Of a stretch of 64,000 bases of DNA, positions 3,839-39,829 are shown piece after piece. The translations under genes were made by a program, and so were the position numbers. How positions within the stretch are numbered: the stretch's first letter is position 1; each line of letters begins with the position of its first letter. This DNA comes from Armatimonadota bacterium (GTDB taxonomy: Bacteria > Sysuimicrobiota > Sysuimicrobiia > Sysuimicrobiales > Sysuimicrobiaceae). The notes beneath the pieces were generated by a model. It did no database searches, was not told where the DNA came from, and saw nothing but the letters and a program-made list of their open reading frames with translations. The stretch lies in contig JANXCW010000006.1 in the NCBI GenBank assembly GCA_025059775.1, positions 22,361-86,360 of the forward strand, written 5' to 3'.

Positions 3839-4289
3839 GGATGCCCTGAACGTGGAGGAGATCCGGGAGCTCGTGCGCATCGTGAGCGAAGCGGACATCG
3901 CGGAGCTGGAGATCGAGACGGGCAGCCTGCGGGTGGCCATCCGCAAGGGCCGCGGGAACAGCGCTCCCCCTCCGCCTCCCACCGTCTCCTCCCAGACCCA
4001 CTCCCCCGCGGAGACCACGCCCGAACTTCCGACCCCGAGGTGGATCCCCGTCACGGCCCCCATGGTGGGCACCTTCTACCGGGCGCCGGCCCCGGACGCC
4101 CCGCCCTTCGTGAATGAGGGGGACCGGGTGACCGCGGGCCAGACGGTGTGCCTCATCGAGGCCATGAAGATGTTCAACGAGATCCCCGCGGAGGTAGCAG
4201 GCCGGGTGATGCGCATCCTCGTGGAGAACGGTACCCCCGTGGAGTATGGGCAGCCCCTCATGCTCATCGAACCTGAGACCGAAACCTGA
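3828..4289 (+). CDS. accB: Biotin carboxyl carrier protein
   Basis: C-terminal biotinyl domain with the EAMKMFNEI biotin-lysine motif. Pro/Ala-rich linker. ATG at 3828 overlaps the accA 3' end. Confidence 0.85.
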   Translation: MNREDALNVEEIRELVRIVSEADIAELEIETGSLRVAIRKGRGNSAPPPPPTVSSQTHSPAETTPELPTPRWIPVTAPMVGTFYRAPAPDAPPFVNEGDRVTAGQTVCLIEAMKMFNEIPAEVAGRVMRILVENGTPVEYGQPLMLIEPETET

Positions 4290-30600: not shown

Positions 30601-32061
30601 TCAACGCCTCTTCTTCGCACGGGCTCGTTCGTACAGCTCCATGTACCGGCGCGCGGACCGGCTCCACGAGAAGTCCGCCCGCATCCCGGCCTGCACCAGT
30701 GTACGCCAGAGGGCGGGATTCCGGAACGCGTCCAGGGCCCGGCGGATGGCCTCCCACAGGGCATCCGGGGTGTACGCCTCGAACACGAACCCGTTGGCCT
30801 CCCCGCGGGCGATGGCCTCCGGGGTGGCGTCTATGATGCTGTCCGCCAGTCCCCCCGTGCGCCGGACCACGGGCACGGTCCCGTACCGGAGACTGTAGAG
30901 CTGGTTGAGGCCGGAGGGTTCGTACCGGGAAGGCATGAGGAACAGGTCACAGCCTGCCTCGATGCGGTGCGCGAGCCCTTCGTCGAACCCAATACGGACC
31001 CCCACGTTCCGTGGGTACCGTTGGGCCGCATCCGTGAAAGCAGCTTCGTACCTCGGATCCCCCATACCCAGCAGCACGAACTGCACGCCCGCGGCCACCA
31101 TCCGCTCCAGGCACTCCTGGACTAGGTCAAGCCCTTTTTGGTCCACCAGGCGCGTGACCATGCCCAGTAGCGGCACCTCGGGCTCATCCGGGAGCCCGAA
31201 CTCCGCCTGCAGGGCCCGCTTGCAGATGCGTTTCCCCGAGAGGTCCTCGAGCCCGTACCGGGCGGGGATGTAGGGGTCCATGCGGGGGTCCCAGACCGAG
31301 TAGTCCACCCCGTTCAGGACCCCGTAGAGGTCCTGGCTACGGGTGCGCAGCACCCCATCGAGTCCATACCCGAACTCCGGGGTCTGGATCTCCCGGGCAT
31401 AGGTCTCGCTCACGGTGCTGAGGAGATCCGCGGAGAGCAGCGCTCCCTTCATGAGGTTCAGAGAGCCGTAGAACTCCAGACGGGACCAGTACACCTCCTC
31501 GGGTAGGCCGGTCACGGGGAACTGCTCCCGGGGGAAGATTCCCTGATAGGCCAGATTGTGGATGGTGAAGAGGGTAGCCGTACCGCCGAGGACGGAGGCC
31601 CCACGTTCCACGGTGTCCAGGTAAATGGGGACCATGGCTGTGTGCCAGTCGTGGCAGTGAAAGACGTCCGGAACCCACCCTGCCAACCGGACCCAGGCGA
31701 GGGCCGCCCGGCACAGGAAGGTGAACCGATGCAGGTTGTCCCCGTAGTCCTGTCCCCTCTCCCCGTAGATCCCGGGCCGTCCGTAGTAGCCCAGGTGGTC
31801 CAGGAACCACACCGGGACCTTCCCGGCAAGGCTCCCCTCCCATATCCCGGCGAGCTCCCCCCGGCCCTCCACGGGTGCCGAGACCTCACCCACGCGCTTG
31901 AGTCCATGGCGTCCGGGGTCCACCGCAGCATACCGGGGCATCAGGACGCGCACGTCCACCCCCAGGTCACGGAGGGCAGGGGGAAGGGCTCCTGCCACAT
32001 CCGCAAGTCCCCCGGTCTTCGCGAAGGGAACCATTTCAGCCACCACGAAGAGTACCCGCAC
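30601..32061 (-). CDS. glgA: Glycogen synthase (ADP-glucose type, GT5)
   Basis: RVLFVVAEMVPFAKTGGLADV N-terminal motif and a GT-B C-domain. GTG start with GGAGGAGG RBS. Confidence 0.85.
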   Translation of the reverse strand: MRVLFVVAEMVPFAKTGGLADVAGALPPALRDLGVDVRVLMPRYAAVDPGRHGLKRVGEVSAPVEGRGELAGIWEGSLAGKVPVWFLDHLGYYGRPGIYGERGQDYGDNLHRFTFLCRAALAWVRLAGWVPDVFHCHDWHTAMVPIYLDTVERGASVLGGTATLFTIHNLAYQGIFPREQFPVTGLPEEVYWSRLEFYGSLNLMKGALLSADLLSTVSETYAREIQTPEFGYGLDGVLRTRSQDLYGVLNGVDYSVWDPRMDPYIPARYGLEDLSGKRICKRALQAEFGLPDEPEVPLLGMVTRLVDQKGLDLVQECLERMVAAGVQFVLLGMGDPRYEAAFTDAAQRYPRNVGVRIGFDEGLAHRIEAGCDLFLMPSRYEPSGLNQLYSLRYGTVPVVRRTGGLADSIIDATPEAIARGEANGFVFEAYTPDALWEAIRRALDAFRNPALWRTLVQAGMRADFSWSRSARRYMELYERARAKKRR

Positions 32062-32200: not shown

Positions 32201-32482
32201 GGGTTTCCTGGCATTTTTCGCTTGACAGAAGGCTCTGGATAGTACAAATTCCCCTTAGAAGGCCGGCGAGGGAAGCGACGGCCAACTTTCAGGTCCTGCC
32301 TGGAAAACGGAATACCTTCCCTATTGACCGGAAAGGGTGTTTCCGGTCCAGGCGGATTTCTAAATTGTCGAAATCAACCTTTTACTCTCCCGCCGGCAGT
32401 ATAGAGCAAATTTCGTGCCAGACTAAATAGGTTCCATGGAAACTTGAATACGAACTTCTCGAACGAAGGAGGGGGGGATGTG

Positions 32483-32500
32483 ATGAATAAGTGGGGGTAA
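32483..32500 (+). CDS. Mini-ORF MNKWG* (5 codons) preceded by GGAGGGGGGG; possible leader/upstream ORF
   Basis: Strong SD-like run. It shares its first 5 codons with the downstream 32-codon ORF. The DNA motif AAGTGGGGGTAA recurs at 32665. Confidence 0.15.
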   Translation: MNKWG

Positions 32501-32577
32501 AGTTCGGATAATCTGAATGTATGGTGTCTAACTCCTGGAAATTATACTAATAAAACGAATGAAAGGAGGGCAAGGAG

Positions 32578-32676
32578 ATGAACAAGTGGGGAGTGTACGT
32601 GGTGCGGCTGGCGCTGGCCCTGACGACCCTGGCGAGCCTGCTGGTGGCCGGTGGGGCTGCTGGCAAGTGGGGGTAA
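32578..32676 (+). CDS. 32-aa hydrophobic small protein MNKWGVYVVRLALALTTLASLLVAGGAAGKWG
   Basis: AGGAGGGCAAGGAG RBS 4 nt upstream. One predicted TM helix. High-GC codons inside a low-GC intergenic island. Begins MNKWG and ends GKWG. Confidence 0.3.
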   Translation: MNKWGVYVVRLALALTTLASLLVAGGAAGKWG

Positions 32677-32833
32677 TTTGACCTGGATGTAGGTGAGCCT
32701 CATTTGATCATGTTGGTAGGGTGAAGTTGGATCCTTCCCCTGCCGTTTAATTGTTCCCTAAAAAGACAAAATAATGGCCCCAAAATTGCTTACCCAGGGT
32801 CCTACTGGAAATCGCTCTCCTAACAGGTGGACG

Positions 32834-34222
32834 ATGAAGAGATCGTTGCAGTTCTTTGTGGGCCTCTGCATTCTAGGGGGCGCTGCAGTTTTGGGCCAAG
32901 TAATCTACGTGTTCTCCCAAACCAGCAGTCCTTACCACCAAACAGATGTCGCAGCTCTCATGCTTCTGACGTTCTTAGGTATCCTAAGTGAACTTAAGCC
33001 AGTCCAATATTATTTTGGCCCTGAGAACAAAACTGAAGTAACCCTTGGGCTTGCCGTTTTTCTGCCTACTTTAATGTTGTACGGATGGACGTTTGCAGTT
33101 CTTGTCGCAATGCTCACTTCCATCTCTACTGATCTTTATGAAGGTAAACCTTGGTATAAAACTTTGTTCAATGCCGGAAACCATGCTATAGCTACGTGGC
33201 TGGCAGGCCACGTATTCGAGGCTATTGCTGGCGGACATGCCTTACCACAGGTTCTGGCTTTGCGGCTTCTTGGCGGTGTCATCGCTGGAATTACATTTTT
33301 CGTTGTGAACATTGGCCTCCTCAGTATTGTAATTTCATTAGCCGCTTCTATTTCTCTTCGAGACACTCTTCTACTTAATGCACAGCTCATAACACCTGTC
33401 TTTGTTTCAATGGTCGGGCTTGCAGTTGTTGGATCAGTGATATGGACAATTCACCCTCTGCTTGTTGTCCTCCTCGCCCCCGCCGCCATGATGACCAAGC
33501 TCTCCTACGCCAACTATGTCCAGCTCCGCATCGAGACCGACAACTTCCTTCACGCCCTCGCGGAGGCGGTGGACGCCCGGGATCCCTACACGGCCCAGCA
33601 CTCCCATCGGGTGGCGGAACTCTGCCGGGCCATCGCCCGCCGCCTGCAGCTCCCGGACCGTGAGGTGAACCGTCTCTACGCTATCGCCCGGGTGCACGAC
33701 GTAGGCAAGATCGCGGTCCGGGACGCCATCCTCCTCAAGCCCGCTCCCCTCAGCGCCGAGGAGCTCAAGGAGATGCGGGGGCACGTGGAGGCGGGTGCCC
33801 GCATCCTGGGTCACATCAGCCTGTACCGGGATGCCCTCGACATCCTCCTCCAGCACCACGAGCGGCTGGATGGGTCCGGGTATCCGAAGGGACTACAGGG
33901 GGAGGAGATCGGCTTATCTGCCCGCATCCTCGCGGTGGCCGATGCCTACGATGCCATGACCACCCTACGCCCCTACCGGCCCGCCAAAAGCCCGGAGGAG
34001 GCTGTACGGGAGTTGTACCGGTTGGCCGGTAAACAGTATGATCTCTCCGTGGTGCGGGCCCTGGAGGACGAACTTATGGAACGCCGGGTGCTTGAGAAAC
34101 CCGTCCTGGCCGCTACCGAATCGGTTTCTGAGATCCTGGAGGCCGTTGATCCCGATGCTCCTCCTGCTCCCCCTCGCGTTGTCCCTCTGCGTCGGATGGA
34201 TCCGGGGCGGAAGTCTTCGTAA
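32834..34222 (+). CDS. Membrane-anchored HD-GYP phosphodiesterase (multi-TM sensor N-domain + HD-GYP)
   Basis: HD motif (HDVGKIAV) and GYP motif (HHERLDGSGYPKGL). N-terminal half has 6-7 predicted TM helices encoded at about 45% GC. ORF frame opens at 32774; the start at 32834 (MKRSLQFF, AGGTGG upstream) is preferred. Confidence 0.8.
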   Translation: MKRSLQFFVGLCILGGAAVLGQVIYVFSQTSSPYHQTDVAALMLLTFLGILSELKPVQYYFGPENKTEVTLGLAVFLPTLMLYGWTFAVLVAMLTSISTDLYEGKPWYKTLFNAGNHAIATWLAGHVFEAIAGGHALPQVLALRLLGGVIAGITFFVVNIGLLSIVISLAASISLRDTLLLNAQLITPVFVSMVGLAVVGSVIWTIHPLLVVLLAPAAMMTKLSYANYVQLRIETDNFLHALAEAVDARDPYTAQHSHRVAELCRAIARRLQLPDREVNRLYAIARVHDVGKIAVRDAILLKPAPLSAEELKEMRGHVEAGARILGHISLYRDALDILLQHHERLDGSGYPKGLQGEEIGLSARILAVADAYDAMTTLRPYRPAKSPEEAVRELYRLAGKQYDLSVVRALEDELMERRVLEKPVLAATESVSEILEAVDPDAPPAPPRVVPLRRMDPGRKSS

Positions 34223-35108
34223 CCTAGCGGAATCCGAGCTCCGCCTGCCCTGGATGGCCCTCCTCGCCATCCTCACGCAACTCCTGATCTTCGACCCTAC
34301 CTCGCGCCTCGTGCCGGTGCGGTTCCCCGTTGTTCCCGTACACGCCCTGTCCTACCTCCTGCTGGCGGTCTTTATCGGGGCGAACCGACGGCTTCCGGGG
34401 ATGTGGCTGCTAGCCGCGGGATTCCTGGCCAACGCCTTGGTGATCCTCAGCAACGGCGGGTACATGCCCGCCTCGGAGGAGGCCCTGCGGGCTGCGGGCC
34501 GGTGGACGCTCCTGCAGGAGGCAGGAGGAACCTACAACAACTCCTCCCTCATCGGGCCGCAGACCCGGCTGTGGTTTCTGGCGGACGTCTTCGCCATCCC
34601 TGCTGGACTTCCGTTTGCGAACGTTTTCAGCCTGGGGGATGTGCTGTTAGCCCTAGGGGTCCTCGTCCTTGTCCCGGGTCTGATGAGAGCCCGACCCCTG
34701 CGGCCGGAGGCGCGGGTAGCTGCAGCCGTGGCAGGAGGCTTTCTTGTGGGGTACCTTGCGGGTAACCTGGAAGCCCCCGCCGCCCTCTCAGCGGTGAGCG
34801 CACCTCAGCCTTCTTCCACCCCCCGCCTCGTCCAGAAATCTTCTCCACCCCCTCTCTCCCCTATGGCTGAACCGGCCACCCCTGCTCCTCAAGTGCTTTA
34901 CACCGTCCAGGTGGGCGCTTACCGGCATTCCGCAAACGCGCGGACGATGGTGAAGCGGCTCGCGGAGGACGGCTACAGGGCCCGCATCCTCTCCGGTAGC
35001 CTCCACCGGGTGGTGGTAGGGAAATTCGAGACTGAGCGGCAGGCGCACCGCCTCGCGGATCTCCTCGGCCGATCCGGTTATCCCACCTACGTGCGCCGCC
35101 TGCGCTAA
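34155..35108 (+). CDS. DUF5317-like membrane protein with C-terminal SPOR (peptidoglycan-binding) domain
   Basis: C-terminal SPOR fold (YTVQVGAYRHSANARTMVKRLAEDGYRARI...YVRRL). N-terminal multi-TM region. Start uncertain (34155 overlaps the HD-GYP end; alternative 34254). Confidence 0.6.
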   Translation: MLLLLPLALSLCVGWIRGGSLRNLAESELRLPWMALLAILTQLLIFDPTSRLVPVRFPVVPVHALSYLLLAVFIGANRRLPGMWLLAAGFLANALVILSNGGYMPASEEALRAAGRWTLLQEAGGTYNNSSLIGPQTRLWFLADVFAIPAGLPFANVFSLGDVLLALGVLVLVPGLMRARPLRPEARVAAAVAGGFLVGYLAGNLEAPAALSAVSAPQPSSTPRLVQKSSPPPLSPMAEPATPAPQVLYTVQVGAYRHSANARTMVKRLAEDGYRARILSGSLHRVVVGKFETERQAHRLADLLGRSGYPTYVRRLR

Positions 35109-39754: not shown

Positions 39755-39829
39755 GCGGGTGTAGCTCAGGGGTAGAGCGTCGGCCCCCCAAGCCGAAGGC
39801 CGCGGGTTCGAATCCCGTCGCCCGCTCCA
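39755..39829 (+). tRNA. tRNA-Gly (anticodon CCC)
   Basis: Hand-folded cloverleaf. Acceptor GCGGGTG/CGCCCGC, D-arm GCTC-AGGGGTA-GAGC, anticodon stem TCGGC/GCCGA with loop CCCCCAA, T-arm GCGGG-TTCGAAT-CCCGT, discriminator T, encoded CCA. TGcTACAAT extended -10 lies 12 nt upstream. Confidence 0.8.

What the first reader, a model, noticed from the sequence alone, without database searches (positions are those of the whole stretch)
32470..32680. Paired tiny ORFs sharing MNKWG (5-codon mini-ORF plus 32-aa hydrophobic peptide ending GKWG) bounded by a 12-nt direct repeat AAGTGGGGGTAA
Seen in sequence: GGAGGGGGGG-ATG-(tga)/GTG ATG AAT AAG TGG GGG TAA encodes MNKWG* at 32483-32500. 78 nt downstream, AGGAGGGCAAGGAG-ATG AAC AAG TGG GGA ... 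GGC AAG TGG GGG TAA encodes MNKWGVYVVRLALALTTLASLLVAGGAAGKWG* (one TM helix; GC-rich codons inside an AT-rich island). The 12-mer AAGTGGGGGTAA ends both ORFs (32489 and 32665), and AAGTGGGGAG starts the second. Another mini-ORF, MVSNSWKLY*, lies between them. Inference: this may be a leader-peptide/uORF regulatory arrangement, a small membrane peptide or toxin (type I TA-like), or a short duplicated insertion whose direct repeats are the 12-mers. No described family comes to mind.
Basis: seen in the sequence. Interest (0 to 1): 0.58.

Follow-up and report, generated by a model that had tools for sequence, protein, structure and literature searches.

The report
Conserved 5-codon uORF plus membrane peptide
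Both tiny ORFs are real, conserved genes: the 32-residue one belongs to an unannotated small membrane-peptide family that always travels with a DUF5317 membrane protein and a c-di-GMP-degrading HD-GYP sensor, and the 5-codon one is a conserved upstream mini-gene of unknown role that copies its first five codons.

Summary
MNKWG* (32483-32500), the 32-aa ORF (32578-32676) and the twice-occurring 12-mer are all present.

The 12-mer is not an insertion scar. It is identical only in this genome and exists because both ORFs end in K-W-G-stop.

In 11 related loci (about 9 lineages of an uncultured Armatimonadota/CSP1-3-like group), both ORFs persist between two conserved divergent sigma54-type promoters.
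- **Mini-ORF:** it varies only at its start (ATG/GTG), at the Asn and Gly wobble positions and in its stop codon (TAA/TGA/TAG). A Shine-Dalgarno sequence is always present and the flanks are scrambled, so it behaves as a translated uORF under peptide-level selection.
- **32-aa ORF:** pN/pS is 0.09-0.6, and AlphaFold2 predicts one helix.

The 32-aa ORF belongs to a wider 24-32-aa family: basic N-terminus, hydrophobic core, [AGS]-G-A, then W near the C-terminus. It has no Pfam or NCBIfam match. Among 80 metagenomic HD-GYP loci it co-occurs with DUF5317 (7/7 against 1/73), and three relatives carry a c-di-GMP-I riboswitch upstream.

The peptide most likely acts in the membrane with DUF5317 and the MASE9-HD-GYP sensor. 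How the mini-ORF acts is unresolved. Type I toxin and attenuator readings are not supported.

The parts
32466..32472 (+). Shine-Dalgarno sequence (AAGGAGG) of the mini-ORF
   Evidence: A GGAGG-like core lies 5-10 nt upstream of the mini-ORF start in all 11 related loci.
32483..32500 (+). Mini-[21 protein letters not shown], encoding MNKWG*
   Evidence: It is conserved in 11 loci. Variation occurs only at the start (ATG/GTG), the Asn wobble (T/C), the Gly wobble (G/A/C/T) and the stop (TAA/TGA/TAG). The flanks are unalignable between subclades.
32501..32564 (+). AT-rich spacer between the two ORFs with no predicted structure; contains the non-conserved ORF MVSNSWKLY* (32521-32550)
   Evidence: Start-to-start spacing is 63-102 nt in relatives. 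Folding z-scores run from -0.6 to +1.1. The spacer sequence is not conserved.
32565..32569 (+). Shine-Dalgarno core (GGAGG) of the 32-aa ORF
   Evidence: It is conserved in all relatives.
32578..32676 (+). 32-aa ORF MNKWGVYVVRLALALTTLASLLVAGGAAGKWG*: a small signal-peptide-like or single-pass membrane protein
   Evidence: pN/pS is 0.09-0.6 across orthologues. AlphaFold2 predicts a helix over residues 4-28 with pLDDT 81. Gene callers called it in several assemblies. It belongs to a 24-32-aa family next to DUF5317 and MASE9-HD-GYP genes.
32705..32745 (+). Hairpin GGTAGGGTGAAG-TTGGATC-CTTCCCCTGCC followed by GTTTAATTGTT; probable intrinsic terminator of the small-ORF transcript
   Evidence: A strong hairpin sits at this position in most relatives despite different stem sequences. 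A T-run follows it in the window, L002, L003, L004 and L011.
32775..32790 (+). Sigma54-type promoter (TGGCCC-N5-TTGCT) for the HD-GYP gene
   Evidence: The GG/GC elements are conserved with a variable 5-nt spacer in all 11 loci. It is one of only two such + strand matches in the window.
32405..32420 (-). Sigma54-type promoter (TGGCAC-GAAAT-TTGC) pointing towards glgA; overlaps a sigma70-like -10 (TATACT)
   Evidence: It is conserved in all 11 loci.
32222..32227 (+). Invariant TTGACA, a candidate -35 box for the small-ORF transcript (inferred)
   Evidence: It is present 229-330 nt upstream of the mini-ORF in all 11 loci. The -10 box is weak and the transcription start site is unknown.
32834..34222 (+). 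MASE9-HD-GYP c-di-GMP phosphodiesterase gene; the true start is 32834, not 32774
   Evidence: Pfam matches HD_5, HD and MASE9. Orthologues are 459-463 aa and M1 is an invariant column in the alignment.
34254..35108 (+). DUF5317-SPOR membrane protein gene, the conserved partner of the small peptide
   Evidence: Pfam matches DUF5317 and SPOR. Co-occurrence with the peptide family is 7/7 against 1/73.

Best explanation
Both ORFs are translated genes, and they sit between two divergent sigma54-type promoters.

**The 32-aa ORF.** It encodes a small N-in/C-out membrane helix with this layout: a basic, Trp-bearing N-terminus; a core of about 14 hydrophobic residues; a small-residue patch (A-G-G-A); and a K-W-x C-terminal tail. 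It belongs to an unannotated 24-32-aa protein family. That family forms a three-gene module with a DUF5317 polytopic membrane protein and a MASE9-HD-GYP c-di-GMP phosphodiesterase. The peptide most likely works inside the membrane as an accessory subunit or ligand of DUF5317 and the MASE9 sensor, and so tunes c-di-GMP breakdown. This step is inferred.

**The mini-ORF.** MNKWG* is a clade-specific translated uORF. It looks like a tandem copy of the peptide gene that collapsed between the gene's own two AAGTGGGG repeats; that deletion would give exactly ATGAACAAGTGGGGGTAA. It has since been kept under selection for SD, start, N-K-W-G and stop. I infer that it acts in cis on translation or stability of the peptide mRNA, by ribosome loading or by a peptide- or codon-dependent pause. 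That mechanism is not shown.

**The 12-mer repeat.** It is a by-product of both ORFs ending in K-W-G-stop.
For: **Shown for the mini-ORF**
- It is retained in 11 loci whose neighbouring HD-GYP proteins are only 49-89% identical to the window's.
- All five variable positions fall within the six sites that can change without altering the start, the peptide or the stop (start first base; Asn, Lys and Gly wobbles; second and third stop bases). The stop codon is always at codon 6.
- An SD is always present, and the flanks are diverged.

**Shown for the 32-aa ORF**
- pN/pS is 0.09-0.6.
- AlphaFold2 predicts a single helix over residues 4-28.

**Shown for the family**
- A signature regex matches 23 of 5,926 small ORFs across 99 sequences. 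All 23 lie just upstream, on the same strand, of an HD-GYP gene or a DUF5317-HD-GYP pair.
- A profile HMM separates members (E <= 5e-8) from background (E >= 0.02).
- Among 80 metagenomic HD-GYP loci, the counts for DUF5317/peptide are 7 +/+, 0 +/-, 1 -/+ (a truncated contig) and 72 -/-. Fisher p = 2.5e-9.
- The gene order changes in L013 and L097 (peptide-DUF5317-HD-GYP) but the trio persists.
- L012 lost DUF5317 and also lost the hydrophobic core of the peptide, in frame.
- A c-di-GMP-I riboswitch precedes the peptide gene in L097, L013 and L016.
- Full tandem paralogues occur in L020 and L090, which supports a duplication origin.

**From the literature**
- The paper that defined MASE9 proposes that it binds its ligand within the membrane (doi 10.1101/2021.11.05.467447).
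Against: - No transcription or translation data exist. The organism is uncultured, and the promoter of the small-ORF transcript is only guessed (TTGACA at 32222).
- No physical interaction was tested.
- The hydrophobic core, about 14 residues plus a small-residue c-region, fits a cleavable Sec signal peptide as well as it fits a membrane anchor.
- L012 keeps the mini-ORF and two 13-aa MNKWG... ORFs without DUF5317 or a membrane segment. The MNKWG units may therefore have a role independent of the membrane peptide.
- No RNA structure links mini-ORF translation to the second ORF, so the cis-regulatory step has no identified mechanism.
- The family HMM and regex were built from the same loci in which they were then counted.
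Confidence: 0.6

Rival explanations
1. Secreted-peptide signalling cassette, Phr- or agr-like. The 32-aa ORF would be a pre-peptide made of a Sec-type signal peptide plus a C-terminal W-containing tail of about 5 residues (AGKWG). The tail would be released outside the cell by signal peptidase or by DUF5317, and the MASE9-HD-GYP protein would be its receptor. MNKWG from the mini-ORF would be an intracellular look-alike of the xGKWG tail.
For: - Family members have a basic n-region, an h-region of 11-14 residues, a small-residue c-region ([AGS]-G-A), and then only 4-6 residues with W at position -2 or -1.
- The trio of small peptide, polytopic membrane protein of about 180 aa, and polytopic sensor with a cytoplasmic output parallels AgrD/AgrB/AgrC (my own knowledge).
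- DUF5317 has invariant polar residues, N-G-G-x-M-P, D111 and F-S-x-G-D, and a confident model with no solved-structure match.
- The xGKWG tail occurs in both subclades and resembles MNKWG.
Against: - No cleavage predictor or experiment was available.
- The tail is poorly conserved (GKWG, EKWY, EKWF, EKIF, NAHWG, RASW).
- The mini-ORF matches the N-terminus of the peptide in every lineage, but matches the tail only in some.
- Nothing shows that DUF5317 is a peptidase.
Confidence: 0.22
2. The repeated SD-ATGAACAAGTGGGG unit is primarily a DNA or RNA cis-element. It could be an enhancer-binding-protein site serving the two divergent sigma54 promoters, or a site for an RNA-binding translational repressor. 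On this reading the mini-ORF's stop codon only prevents wasteful translation.
For: - The units lie exactly between two conserved sigma54-type promoters that need an upstream activator site.
- L012 keeps three units although the membrane peptide is gone.
- The distance from the start of the second ORF to the + strand promoter is 196-197 bp in four lineages. In L011 a 12-nt shorter ORF is offset by a 12-nt longer spacer.
Against: - The motif has no dyad symmetry.
- Unit spacing (63-102 bp) and distances to the promoters (147-236 bp) do not keep a helical phase.
- A good SD at correct spacing is maintained upstream of the mini-ORF.
- ATG/GTG start switching and use of all three stop codons are what translation predicts.
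- No enhancer-binding-protein gene (GAFTGA motif) is present in the window.
Confidence: 0.1
3. Leader-peptide transcription attenuation or ribosome-arrest control of the downstream HD-GYP operon. Stalling on the Trp codons or at the W-x-stop ends would decide whether the hairpin after the 32-aa ORF terminates transcription.
For: - Every ORF here ends in [KR]-W-x-stop except the L011 peptide.
- A hairpin with a T-run follows the 32-aa ORF in the window, L002, L003, L004 and L011.
- Short uORFs can arrest ribosomes at stop codons. PepNL, 14 aa, is an example (PMC11890864).
Against: - No anti-terminator or alternative pairing is predicted.
- The T-run is missing in L007, L010, L015, L096 and L098.
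- The HD-GYP gene has its own sigma54-type promoter downstream of the hairpin.
- The 32-aa ORF shows whole-length protein conservation and a family distribution unlike a leader peptide.
Confidence: 0.05
4. Type I toxin-antitoxin-like small hydrophobic toxin, or a short duplicated insertion flanked by 12-nt direct repeats.
For: - The peptide is small and hydrophobic.
- An exact 12-mer occurs twice.
Against: - The peptide keeps strict synteny with DUF5317 and HD-GYP genes in genomes of 34-71% GC, which is unlike toxin-antitoxin loci.
- The 12-mer identity is absent in all relatives, yet both ORFs are present in them.
- No relative shows an empty site.
Confidence: 0.03

Closest known systems
Small membrane or periplasmic proteins that modulate an adjacent sensor (MgrB-PhoQ and SafA-PhoQ from my own knowledge; DbfQ-DbfS, PMC12714742)
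   Same: It is a tiny protein encoded next to a membrane sensor gene. It has one predicted helix and a presumed protein-protein mode of action.
   Different: - The partner module is DUF5317 plus a MASE9-HD-GYP c-di-GMP phosphodiesterase, not a histidine kinase.
- The peptide is only 24-32 aa.
- There is no sequence similarity to those proteins.
- No interaction has been tested.
Peptide-signal cassettes: Phr pentapeptide precursors and AgrD/AgrB/AgrC (my own knowledge)
   Same: The parts list matches: a small precursor-like peptide, a dedicated polytopic membrane protein and a polytopic membrane receptor. The tail is about 5 residues, like mature Phr peptides.
   Different: - The sequence after the putative signal peptide is far shorter than in Phr precursors.
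- There is no thiolactone cysteine.
- DUF5317 is unrelated in sequence to AgrB as far as tested, with no PDB sequence or fold hits.
- The output would be c-di-GMP hydrolysis.
Regulatory uORFs and ribosome arrest peptides (PepNL 14 aa, PMC11890864; TnaC and Erm leaders from my own knowledge)
   Same: The mini-ORF is a short upstream ORF with its own SD, and its amino-acid sequence, not just its presence, is conserved.
   Different: - At five codons it is shorter than any inducer-independent arrest peptide I know of.
- It duplicates the N-terminus of the downstream ORF.
- No RNA structure couples it to the downstream start.
- Arrest has not been shown.
c-di-GMP-I riboswitch-controlled operons (Rfam RF01051 and RF03167)
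   Same: In relatives L097, L013 and L016 the same small-peptide gene is the first gene after a c-di-GMP-I aptamer, ahead of DUF5317 and/or HD-GYP genes.
   Different: The window and its clade have no such aptamer. There the peptide gene is preceded by the mini-ORF, and the HD-GYP gene has a sigma54-type promoter.
Type I toxins (Hok, TisB, Fst; my own knowledge)
   Same: The peptide has a similar size and hydrophobicity.
   Different: The peptide has conserved protein-coding partners across phyla. It is also a single locus with a riboswitch or sigma54 context rather than an antisense-RNA pair.

Membership tests
Translated, sequence-selected uORF (regulatory leader ORF) | Own ribosome-binding site and start/stop codons maintained across relatives | tested here: met
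   A GGAGG-like SD lies 5-10 nt upstream, the start is ATG or GTG, and the stop is TAA, TGA or TAG at codon 6 in 11 of 11 loci.
Translated, sequence-selected uORF (regulatory leader ORF) | Substitutions confined to synonymous positions | tested here: met
   The variable positions are 1, 6, 15, 17 and 18 only. Gly wobble information content is 0, and all non-synonymous positions are invariant.
Translated, sequence-selected uORF (regulatory leader ORF) | Translation of the uORF changes expression of the downstream ORF | not testable with these tools
   This needs reporter fusions, toeprinting or ribosome profiling.
Classical leader-peptide attenuator (trp type) | Mutually exclusive terminator and anti-terminator hairpins overlapping the leader ORF | tested here: not met
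   No alternative pairing is predicted. Folding z-scores are -1.3 for the whole unit and -0.6 to +1.1 for SD1 to SD2 in 10 lineages.
Classical leader-peptide attenuator (trp type) | Downstream gene depends on read-through of the terminator | tested here: not met
   A conserved sigma54-type promoter lies between the hairpin and the HD-GYP gene in all 11 loci.
Small single-pass membrane protein partner of a sensor | One hydrophobic helix long enough to span a membrane | tested here: met
   AlphaFold2 predicts a helix over residues 4-28 with pLDDT 81. W4 and W31 are 26 residues apart (sequence).
Small single-pass membrane protein partner of a sensor | Conserved genetic linkage to the partner genes | tested here: met
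   Co-occurrence with DUF5317 is 7/7 against 1/73 in 80 HD-GYP loci, p = 2.5e-9. The linkage survives a change of gene order.
Small single-pass membrane protein partner of a sensor | Physical interaction with the partner | not testable with these tools
   No multimer prediction or experiment was available.
Sec-type signal peptide / secreted pre-peptide | Basic n-region, 7-15-residue h-region, small residues at -3 and -1 | tested here: inconclusive
   The pattern is visible by eye in the family alignment. No signal-peptide predictor was available and cleavage is unknown.
c-di-GMP-I riboswitch regulon | Rfam RF01051 or RF03167 aptamer upstream | tested here: not met
   None is found in the window or its clade. 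An aptamer is present upstream of homologous peptide genes in L097, L013 and L016.
Type I toxin-antitoxin | Self-contained locus without conserved protein partners, often multicopy | tested here: not met
   The motif and ORF occur at one place in the window. Synteny with DUF5317 and HD-GYP genes is strict.
Type I toxin-antitoxin | Antisense RNA and toxicity on overexpression | not testable with these tools
   No expression data exist.
Insertion with target-site duplication | Direct repeats flank a segment that is absent from relatives or whose repeats are conserved | tested here: not met
   The segment is present in all relatives, and the 12-mer identity is unique to the window.
Programmed translational bypass (T4 gene 60 type) | Matching take-off and landing codons | tested here: not met
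   The mini-ORF Gly codon is GGC or GGT while the landing codon is GGA in L003, L007 and L010.

The most novel reading that the evidence does not exclude
The trio would be a previously unrecognised peptide-signalling cassette wired directly to c-di-GMP turnover.
- The 24-32-aa ORF would be a minimal pre-peptide.
- DUF5317, a fold with no solved relative, would be its membrane processing or export enzyme.
- The MASE9-HD-GYP protein would be the receptor.
- In this clade the 5-codon mini-ORF would make a cytoplasmic pentapeptide (MNKWG) that mimics the processed end of the signal. Alternatively it would act as the shortest known sequence-specific nascent-peptide sensor.
Probability: 0.12. Interest if true: 0.85.

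Novelty: new variant of a known kind. Interest (0 to 1): 0.62.

Why it matters
HD-GYP phosphodiesterases with MASE9 sensor domains, and DUF5317 proteins, have no known signals or partners. A small peptide that always accompanies them, and that is sometimes placed under a c-di-GMP riboswitch, gives a concrete and testable candidate for the missing input. It also adds a family that standard annotation misses.

The mini-ORF is a rare case of five codons held constant at the amino-acid level across deep divergence while copying the start of the next gene. That makes it a clean test case for how very short uORFs can carry sequence-specific function.

Tried and rejected
**Searches that gave nothing**
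- Rfam on the window, at gathering threshold and in E-value mode, finds only a tRNA at 39755 and nothing in the region.
- Pfam and NCBIfam give no hit for the peptide.
- phmmer against 1.84 billion representatives finds only the peptide's own cluster.
- The word-indexed protein search refuses queries under 40 aa. A 64-aa concatenate found only one 53-aa over-extended gene call.
- The genome scan for the paired DNA motif returned one true relative, Ca. Sysuimicrobium calidum (L015), and one unrelated Erythrobacter repeat.
- The metagenome scan with the HD-GYP alignment returned only distant paralogues. These later proved useful as an unbiased set for the co-occurrence test.

**Ideas tested and dropped**
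- Remnant homology between the 3' flanks of the mini-ORF and of the 32-aa ORF is not significant, so there is no direct trace of the duplication.
- Strand assignment of the hairpin-rich region upstream by folding energies and G-U counts was undecided.
- No further copy or antisense match of the motif exists in the window.
- No GAFTGA enhancer-binding protein is encoded in the window.
- A prepilin-like cleavage after MNKWG was rejected, because other family members lack the Gly and the 28-aa forms have Lys at +1.
- Translational bypass was rejected on codon mismatch.
Full report
**1.

The sequence shows these features on the + strand:
- AAGGAGG at 32466-32472
- ATG AAT AAG TGG GGG TAA (MNKWG*) at 32483-32500
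- GGAGG at 32565-32569
- ATG AAC AAG TGG GGA ... GGC AAG TGG GGG TAA at 32578-32676, encoding MNKWGVYVVRLALALTTLASLLVAGGAAGKWG*

The 12-mer AAGTGGGGGTAA occurs exactly twice in the 64 kb. About 0.15 occurrences are expected, and 1 of 100 shuffles reaches two. The SD plus the first 14 nt of both ORFs form a 24-nt repeat that is 79% identical.

The region lies in an AT-rich island, GC 42-55% against about 62-73% around it. The 32-aa ORF keeps GC3 at 87% inside that island. The intervening ORF MVSNSWKLY* (32521-32550) has no SD and is not conserved.

**2. Genomic setting**

Gene order in the window:
- To the left, on the minus strand, are glgA (30601-32061) and galT.
- To the right, on the + strand, are a MASE9-HD-GYP c-di-GMP phosphodiesterase and a DUF5317-SPOR membrane protein (34254-35108).

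The sources' own names for homologues point to an uncultured Armatimonadota group. The one species-level hit is Candidatus Sysuimicrobium calidum, of the CSP1-3/Sysuimicrobiota lineage.

The ATG at 32774, which the ORF finder used for the HD-GYP gene, lies inside a conserved promoter. The real start is 32834.

**3. Both ORFs are conserved**

I fetched the contigs that encode HD-GYP homologues 42-89% identical to the window's and one locus from a DNA-pattern scan.

Eleven loci, about nine lineages, share one architecture:
- a minus-strand sigma54-type promoter (TGGCAC-N5-TTGC) facing glgA
- the mini-ORF
- the peptide ORF
- a hairpin
- a plus-strand sigma54-type promoter
- the HD-GYP gene

The eleven loci are the window, L002, L015, L003, L004, L007, L010, L011, L012, L096 and L098.

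*The mini-ORF.* It reads [A/G]TG AA[T/C] AAG TGG GG[G/A/C/T] followed by TAA, TGA or TAG. Every variable position is a start variant, a synonymous site or a stop variant. The Gly wobble is fully degenerate while T16 is invariant. A GGAGG-type SD sits 5-10 nt upstream in every case.

The flanks cannot be aligned between subclades. Five variable positions all falling among the six free positions of 18 has a probability of about 7e-4 if their placement were random (my calculation). This is the signature of a translated ORF whose peptide or codons are under selection.

*The peptide ORF.* It is 32 aa, or 28 aa in L011, L096 and L098. It shows many synonymous changes, with pN/pS of 0.09-0.6. AlphaFold2 predicts a single helix over residues 4-28.

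*The 12-mer.* Its identity is unique to this genome. Relatives end the long ORF with GGGAAGTGGGGCTAG, GAGAAGTGGTACTAG and similar sequences. The repeat is therefore a by-product of both ORFs ending in K-W-G-stop, not the border of an insertion.

**4. The 32-aa ORF belongs to a wider, unannotated family**

More distant relatives carry a small ORF of the same design, also just upstream and on the same strand:
- L013 and L097, 39-42% HD-GYP identity in the alignment (42-43% by BLASTP) and a different neighbourhood
- seven unrelated metagenomic loci with GC from 34% to 66%

The design is:
- a basic N-terminus
- 11-14 hydrophobic residues
- [AGS]-G-A
- 2-4 residues
- Trp
- 0-2 residues
- stop

Examples are MRWKAKILNLLVALAALSALLVAIGAQGKWEH, MRQMKARLMKVLFAIMALLLAGGANAHWG, MKTIVKVVMAIVTLVLAGGARASW and MYKLMARFGFIVVLLLSAWAGWRW.

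Specificity and co-occurrence:
- A signature regex matched 23 of 5,926 small ORFs in all sequences held. All 23 were in that position.
- A profile HMM separates members (E <= 5e-8) from everything else (E >= 0.02).
- Among the 80 metagenomic HD-GYP loci, which were fetched without reference to the peptide, the peptide co-occurs with DUF5317 in 7 of 7 cases.
- It is absent from 72 of the 73 loci without DUF5317. The one exception is a contig that ends right after the HD-GYP gene. Fisher p = 2.5e-9.
- One caveat applies: the HMM was trained on these members.

Three natural variants are informative:
- L013 and L097 have the order peptide-DUF5317-HD-GYP.
- L020 and L090 carry two tandem full-length paralogues.
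- L012 has lost DUF5317 and has also lost the hydrophobic core of the peptide, in frame. It retains two identical 13-aa ORFs (MNKWGRTKCERWA*) and the mini-ORF.

Rfam finds c-di-GMP-I-type aptamers directly upstream of the peptide gene in L097, L013 and L016, but none in the window clade. No Pfam or NCBIfam model matches the peptide. An exhaustive phmmer search finds only its own cluster.

**5. What it most likely does**

*Shown:* these are two conserved, SD-equipped coding ORFs. The longer one is a one-helix hydrophobic peptide genetically tied to DUF5317 and a MASE9-HD-GYP protein.

*Inferred:* the peptide inserts N-in/C-out, with [K/R]-W anchors at both interfaces and a small-residue face (A-G-G-A-A-G). 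It acts inside the membrane on DUF5317 and/or the MASE9 domain and modulates c-di-GMP hydrolysis. The paper that defined MASE9 argues that it binds its ligand within the membrane (doi 10.1101/2021.11.05.467447).

The riboswitch in relatives fits a feedback module that responds to c-di-GMP. In the window clade the wiring differs in two ways:
- The peptide gene is followed by a hairpin (32705-32734), which carries a T-run in five lineages.
- The HD-GYP gene has its own sigma54-type promoter.

**6. The mini-ORF**

*Origin.* Deleting the DNA between the two AAGTGGGG repeats inside the long ORF gives exactly ATGAACAAGTGGGGGTAA. That differs from the mini-ORF only at the Asn wobble (sequence). Three observations together suggest that a tandem copy collapsed:
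- tandem paralogues exist in L020 and L090
- L012 shows an in-frame collapse of the peptide
- the GKWG tail is present in both subclades

I found no residual flank homology to prove this.

*Function.* This is unresolved. The SD1-to-SD2 segment is AT-rich and no more structured than shuffled sequence in all ten lineages. A structural switch is therefore unlikely. I favour a cis role in translation or stability of the peptide mRNA, by ribosome loading or by a peptide- or codon-dependent pause. Short uORF peptides can block termination; PepNL is an example (PMC11890864). This is inference with low confidence.

L012 keeps MNKWG units without the membrane peptide, which warns that the units may have an independent role.

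**7. Rivals**

- **Secreted-signal model.** The short hydrophobic core and the small-residue c-region also fit a cleavable signal peptide. That would leave a W-containing tail of about five residues, in a Phr- or agr-like logic with DUF5317 as processor. DUF5317 has invariant N-G-G-x-M-P, D111 and F-S-x-G-D and a confident AlphaFold2 model with pLDDT 87, but no match among solved structures. I could not test cleavage.
- **DNA or RNA cis-element.** The units lie where activator sites for the two sigma54 promoters should be. The evidence against this reading is:
  - the units have no dyad symmetry
  - spacings are variable
  - a properly spaced SD is maintained
  - the start codon switches between ATG and GTG
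  - all three stop codons are used
- **Attenuator, type I toxin, insertion and translational bypass.** Each fails at least one defining feature tested here.

**8. Verdict**

The finding is real and more interesting than a chance repeat. It consists of an unannotated small-protein family linked to c-di-GMP signalling, plus a deeply conserved five-codon uORF that copies the start of the next gene. In kind, these are a small membrane partner and a uORF, both known categories. The family, its partners and the self-copying uORF are new variants. No expression data exist for this uncultured lineage, so all functional steps remain inferred.

Noticed in passing
window 32774-32834: The longest-ORF start of the HD-GYP gene (ATG 32774) lies inside a conserved sigma54-type promoter (TGGCCCCAAAATTGCT, 32775-32790). 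Orthologues and the alignment place the true start at ATG 32834 (MKRSLQFF...).
   Followed up: yes
window 32834-33450: The first ~200 codons of the HD-GYP gene (the MASE9 membrane part) have GC3 of only 27-60%, against 67-92% over most of the HD-GYP domain. The drop is lineage-specific: strong here and in L004, weaker in L003, and absent in L007 and L013. Gene callers in two assemblies missed this half of the gene. The cause is unknown.
   Followed up: partly
window 32405-32420 (minus strand): A conserved TGGCAC-N5-TTGC faces glgA about 345 nt upstream of its start. The same stretch also reads as a sigma70-like promoter, with -10 TAnnnT, and -35 TTGACN in L010, L011, L096 and L098. This suggests dual or overlapping promoters for the glycogen synthase operon.
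   Followed up: partly
window 32221-32400: An invariant CTTGACA is followed by ~140-250 nt of hairpin-rich sequence, for example GACCGGAAAGGGTGTTTCCGGTC. The architecture, but not the sequence, is kept in all 11 loci. It could be a long leader of the small-ORF mRNA or of the glgA mRNA. The strand could not be decided and there is no Rfam match.
   Followed up: partly
window 32705-32734; L007 ~3877-3905: The hairpin after the peptide gene has an 11-12-bp stem and a 7-nt loop, UUNNANN in most lineages. In L007 it reads GGAGUUCGAGUCUCC, like a tRNA T-arm or minihelix. ARAGORN finds no tRNA here.
   Followed up: partly
L097 2130-2209; L013 3039-3125; L016 1979-2058: c-di-GMP-I (RF01051) or c-di-GMP-I-GGC (RF03167) aptamers lie directly upstream of homologous small-peptide genes that lead DUF5317/HD-GYP operons.
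   Followed up: yes
L012 3596-3825: This locus has three SD-MNKWG units: MNKWG* and two MNKWGRTKCERWA* ORFs. The two 13-aa ORFs are 54-nt SD-to-stop copies that are 100% identical although their flanks differ. The locus has lost DUF5317.
   Followed up: partly
window 34254-34790 (DUF5317 domain): The AlphaFold2 model is confident (pLDDT 87, five helices plus a structured loop region) but has no Foldseek match in the PDB (best E = 2.3). Invariant polar residues N44, N60, N67, D111, S126 and D129 cluster near the helix ends.
   Followed up: partly
L018, L019, L029, L030, upstream of the small ORFs: These low-GC relatives share a TAGCGGAGCGG-like block upstream of the peptide gene and have no Rfam hit. 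It may be another leader element.
   Followed up: no
L014 941-1075 (reverse-complement coordinates; uncultured Erythrobacter contig): The paired DNA pattern also hit an unrelated ~33-nt repeat ([33 protein letters not shown]) present twice about 100 nt apart in an intergenic region. It is not related to the peptide family.
   Followed up: partly
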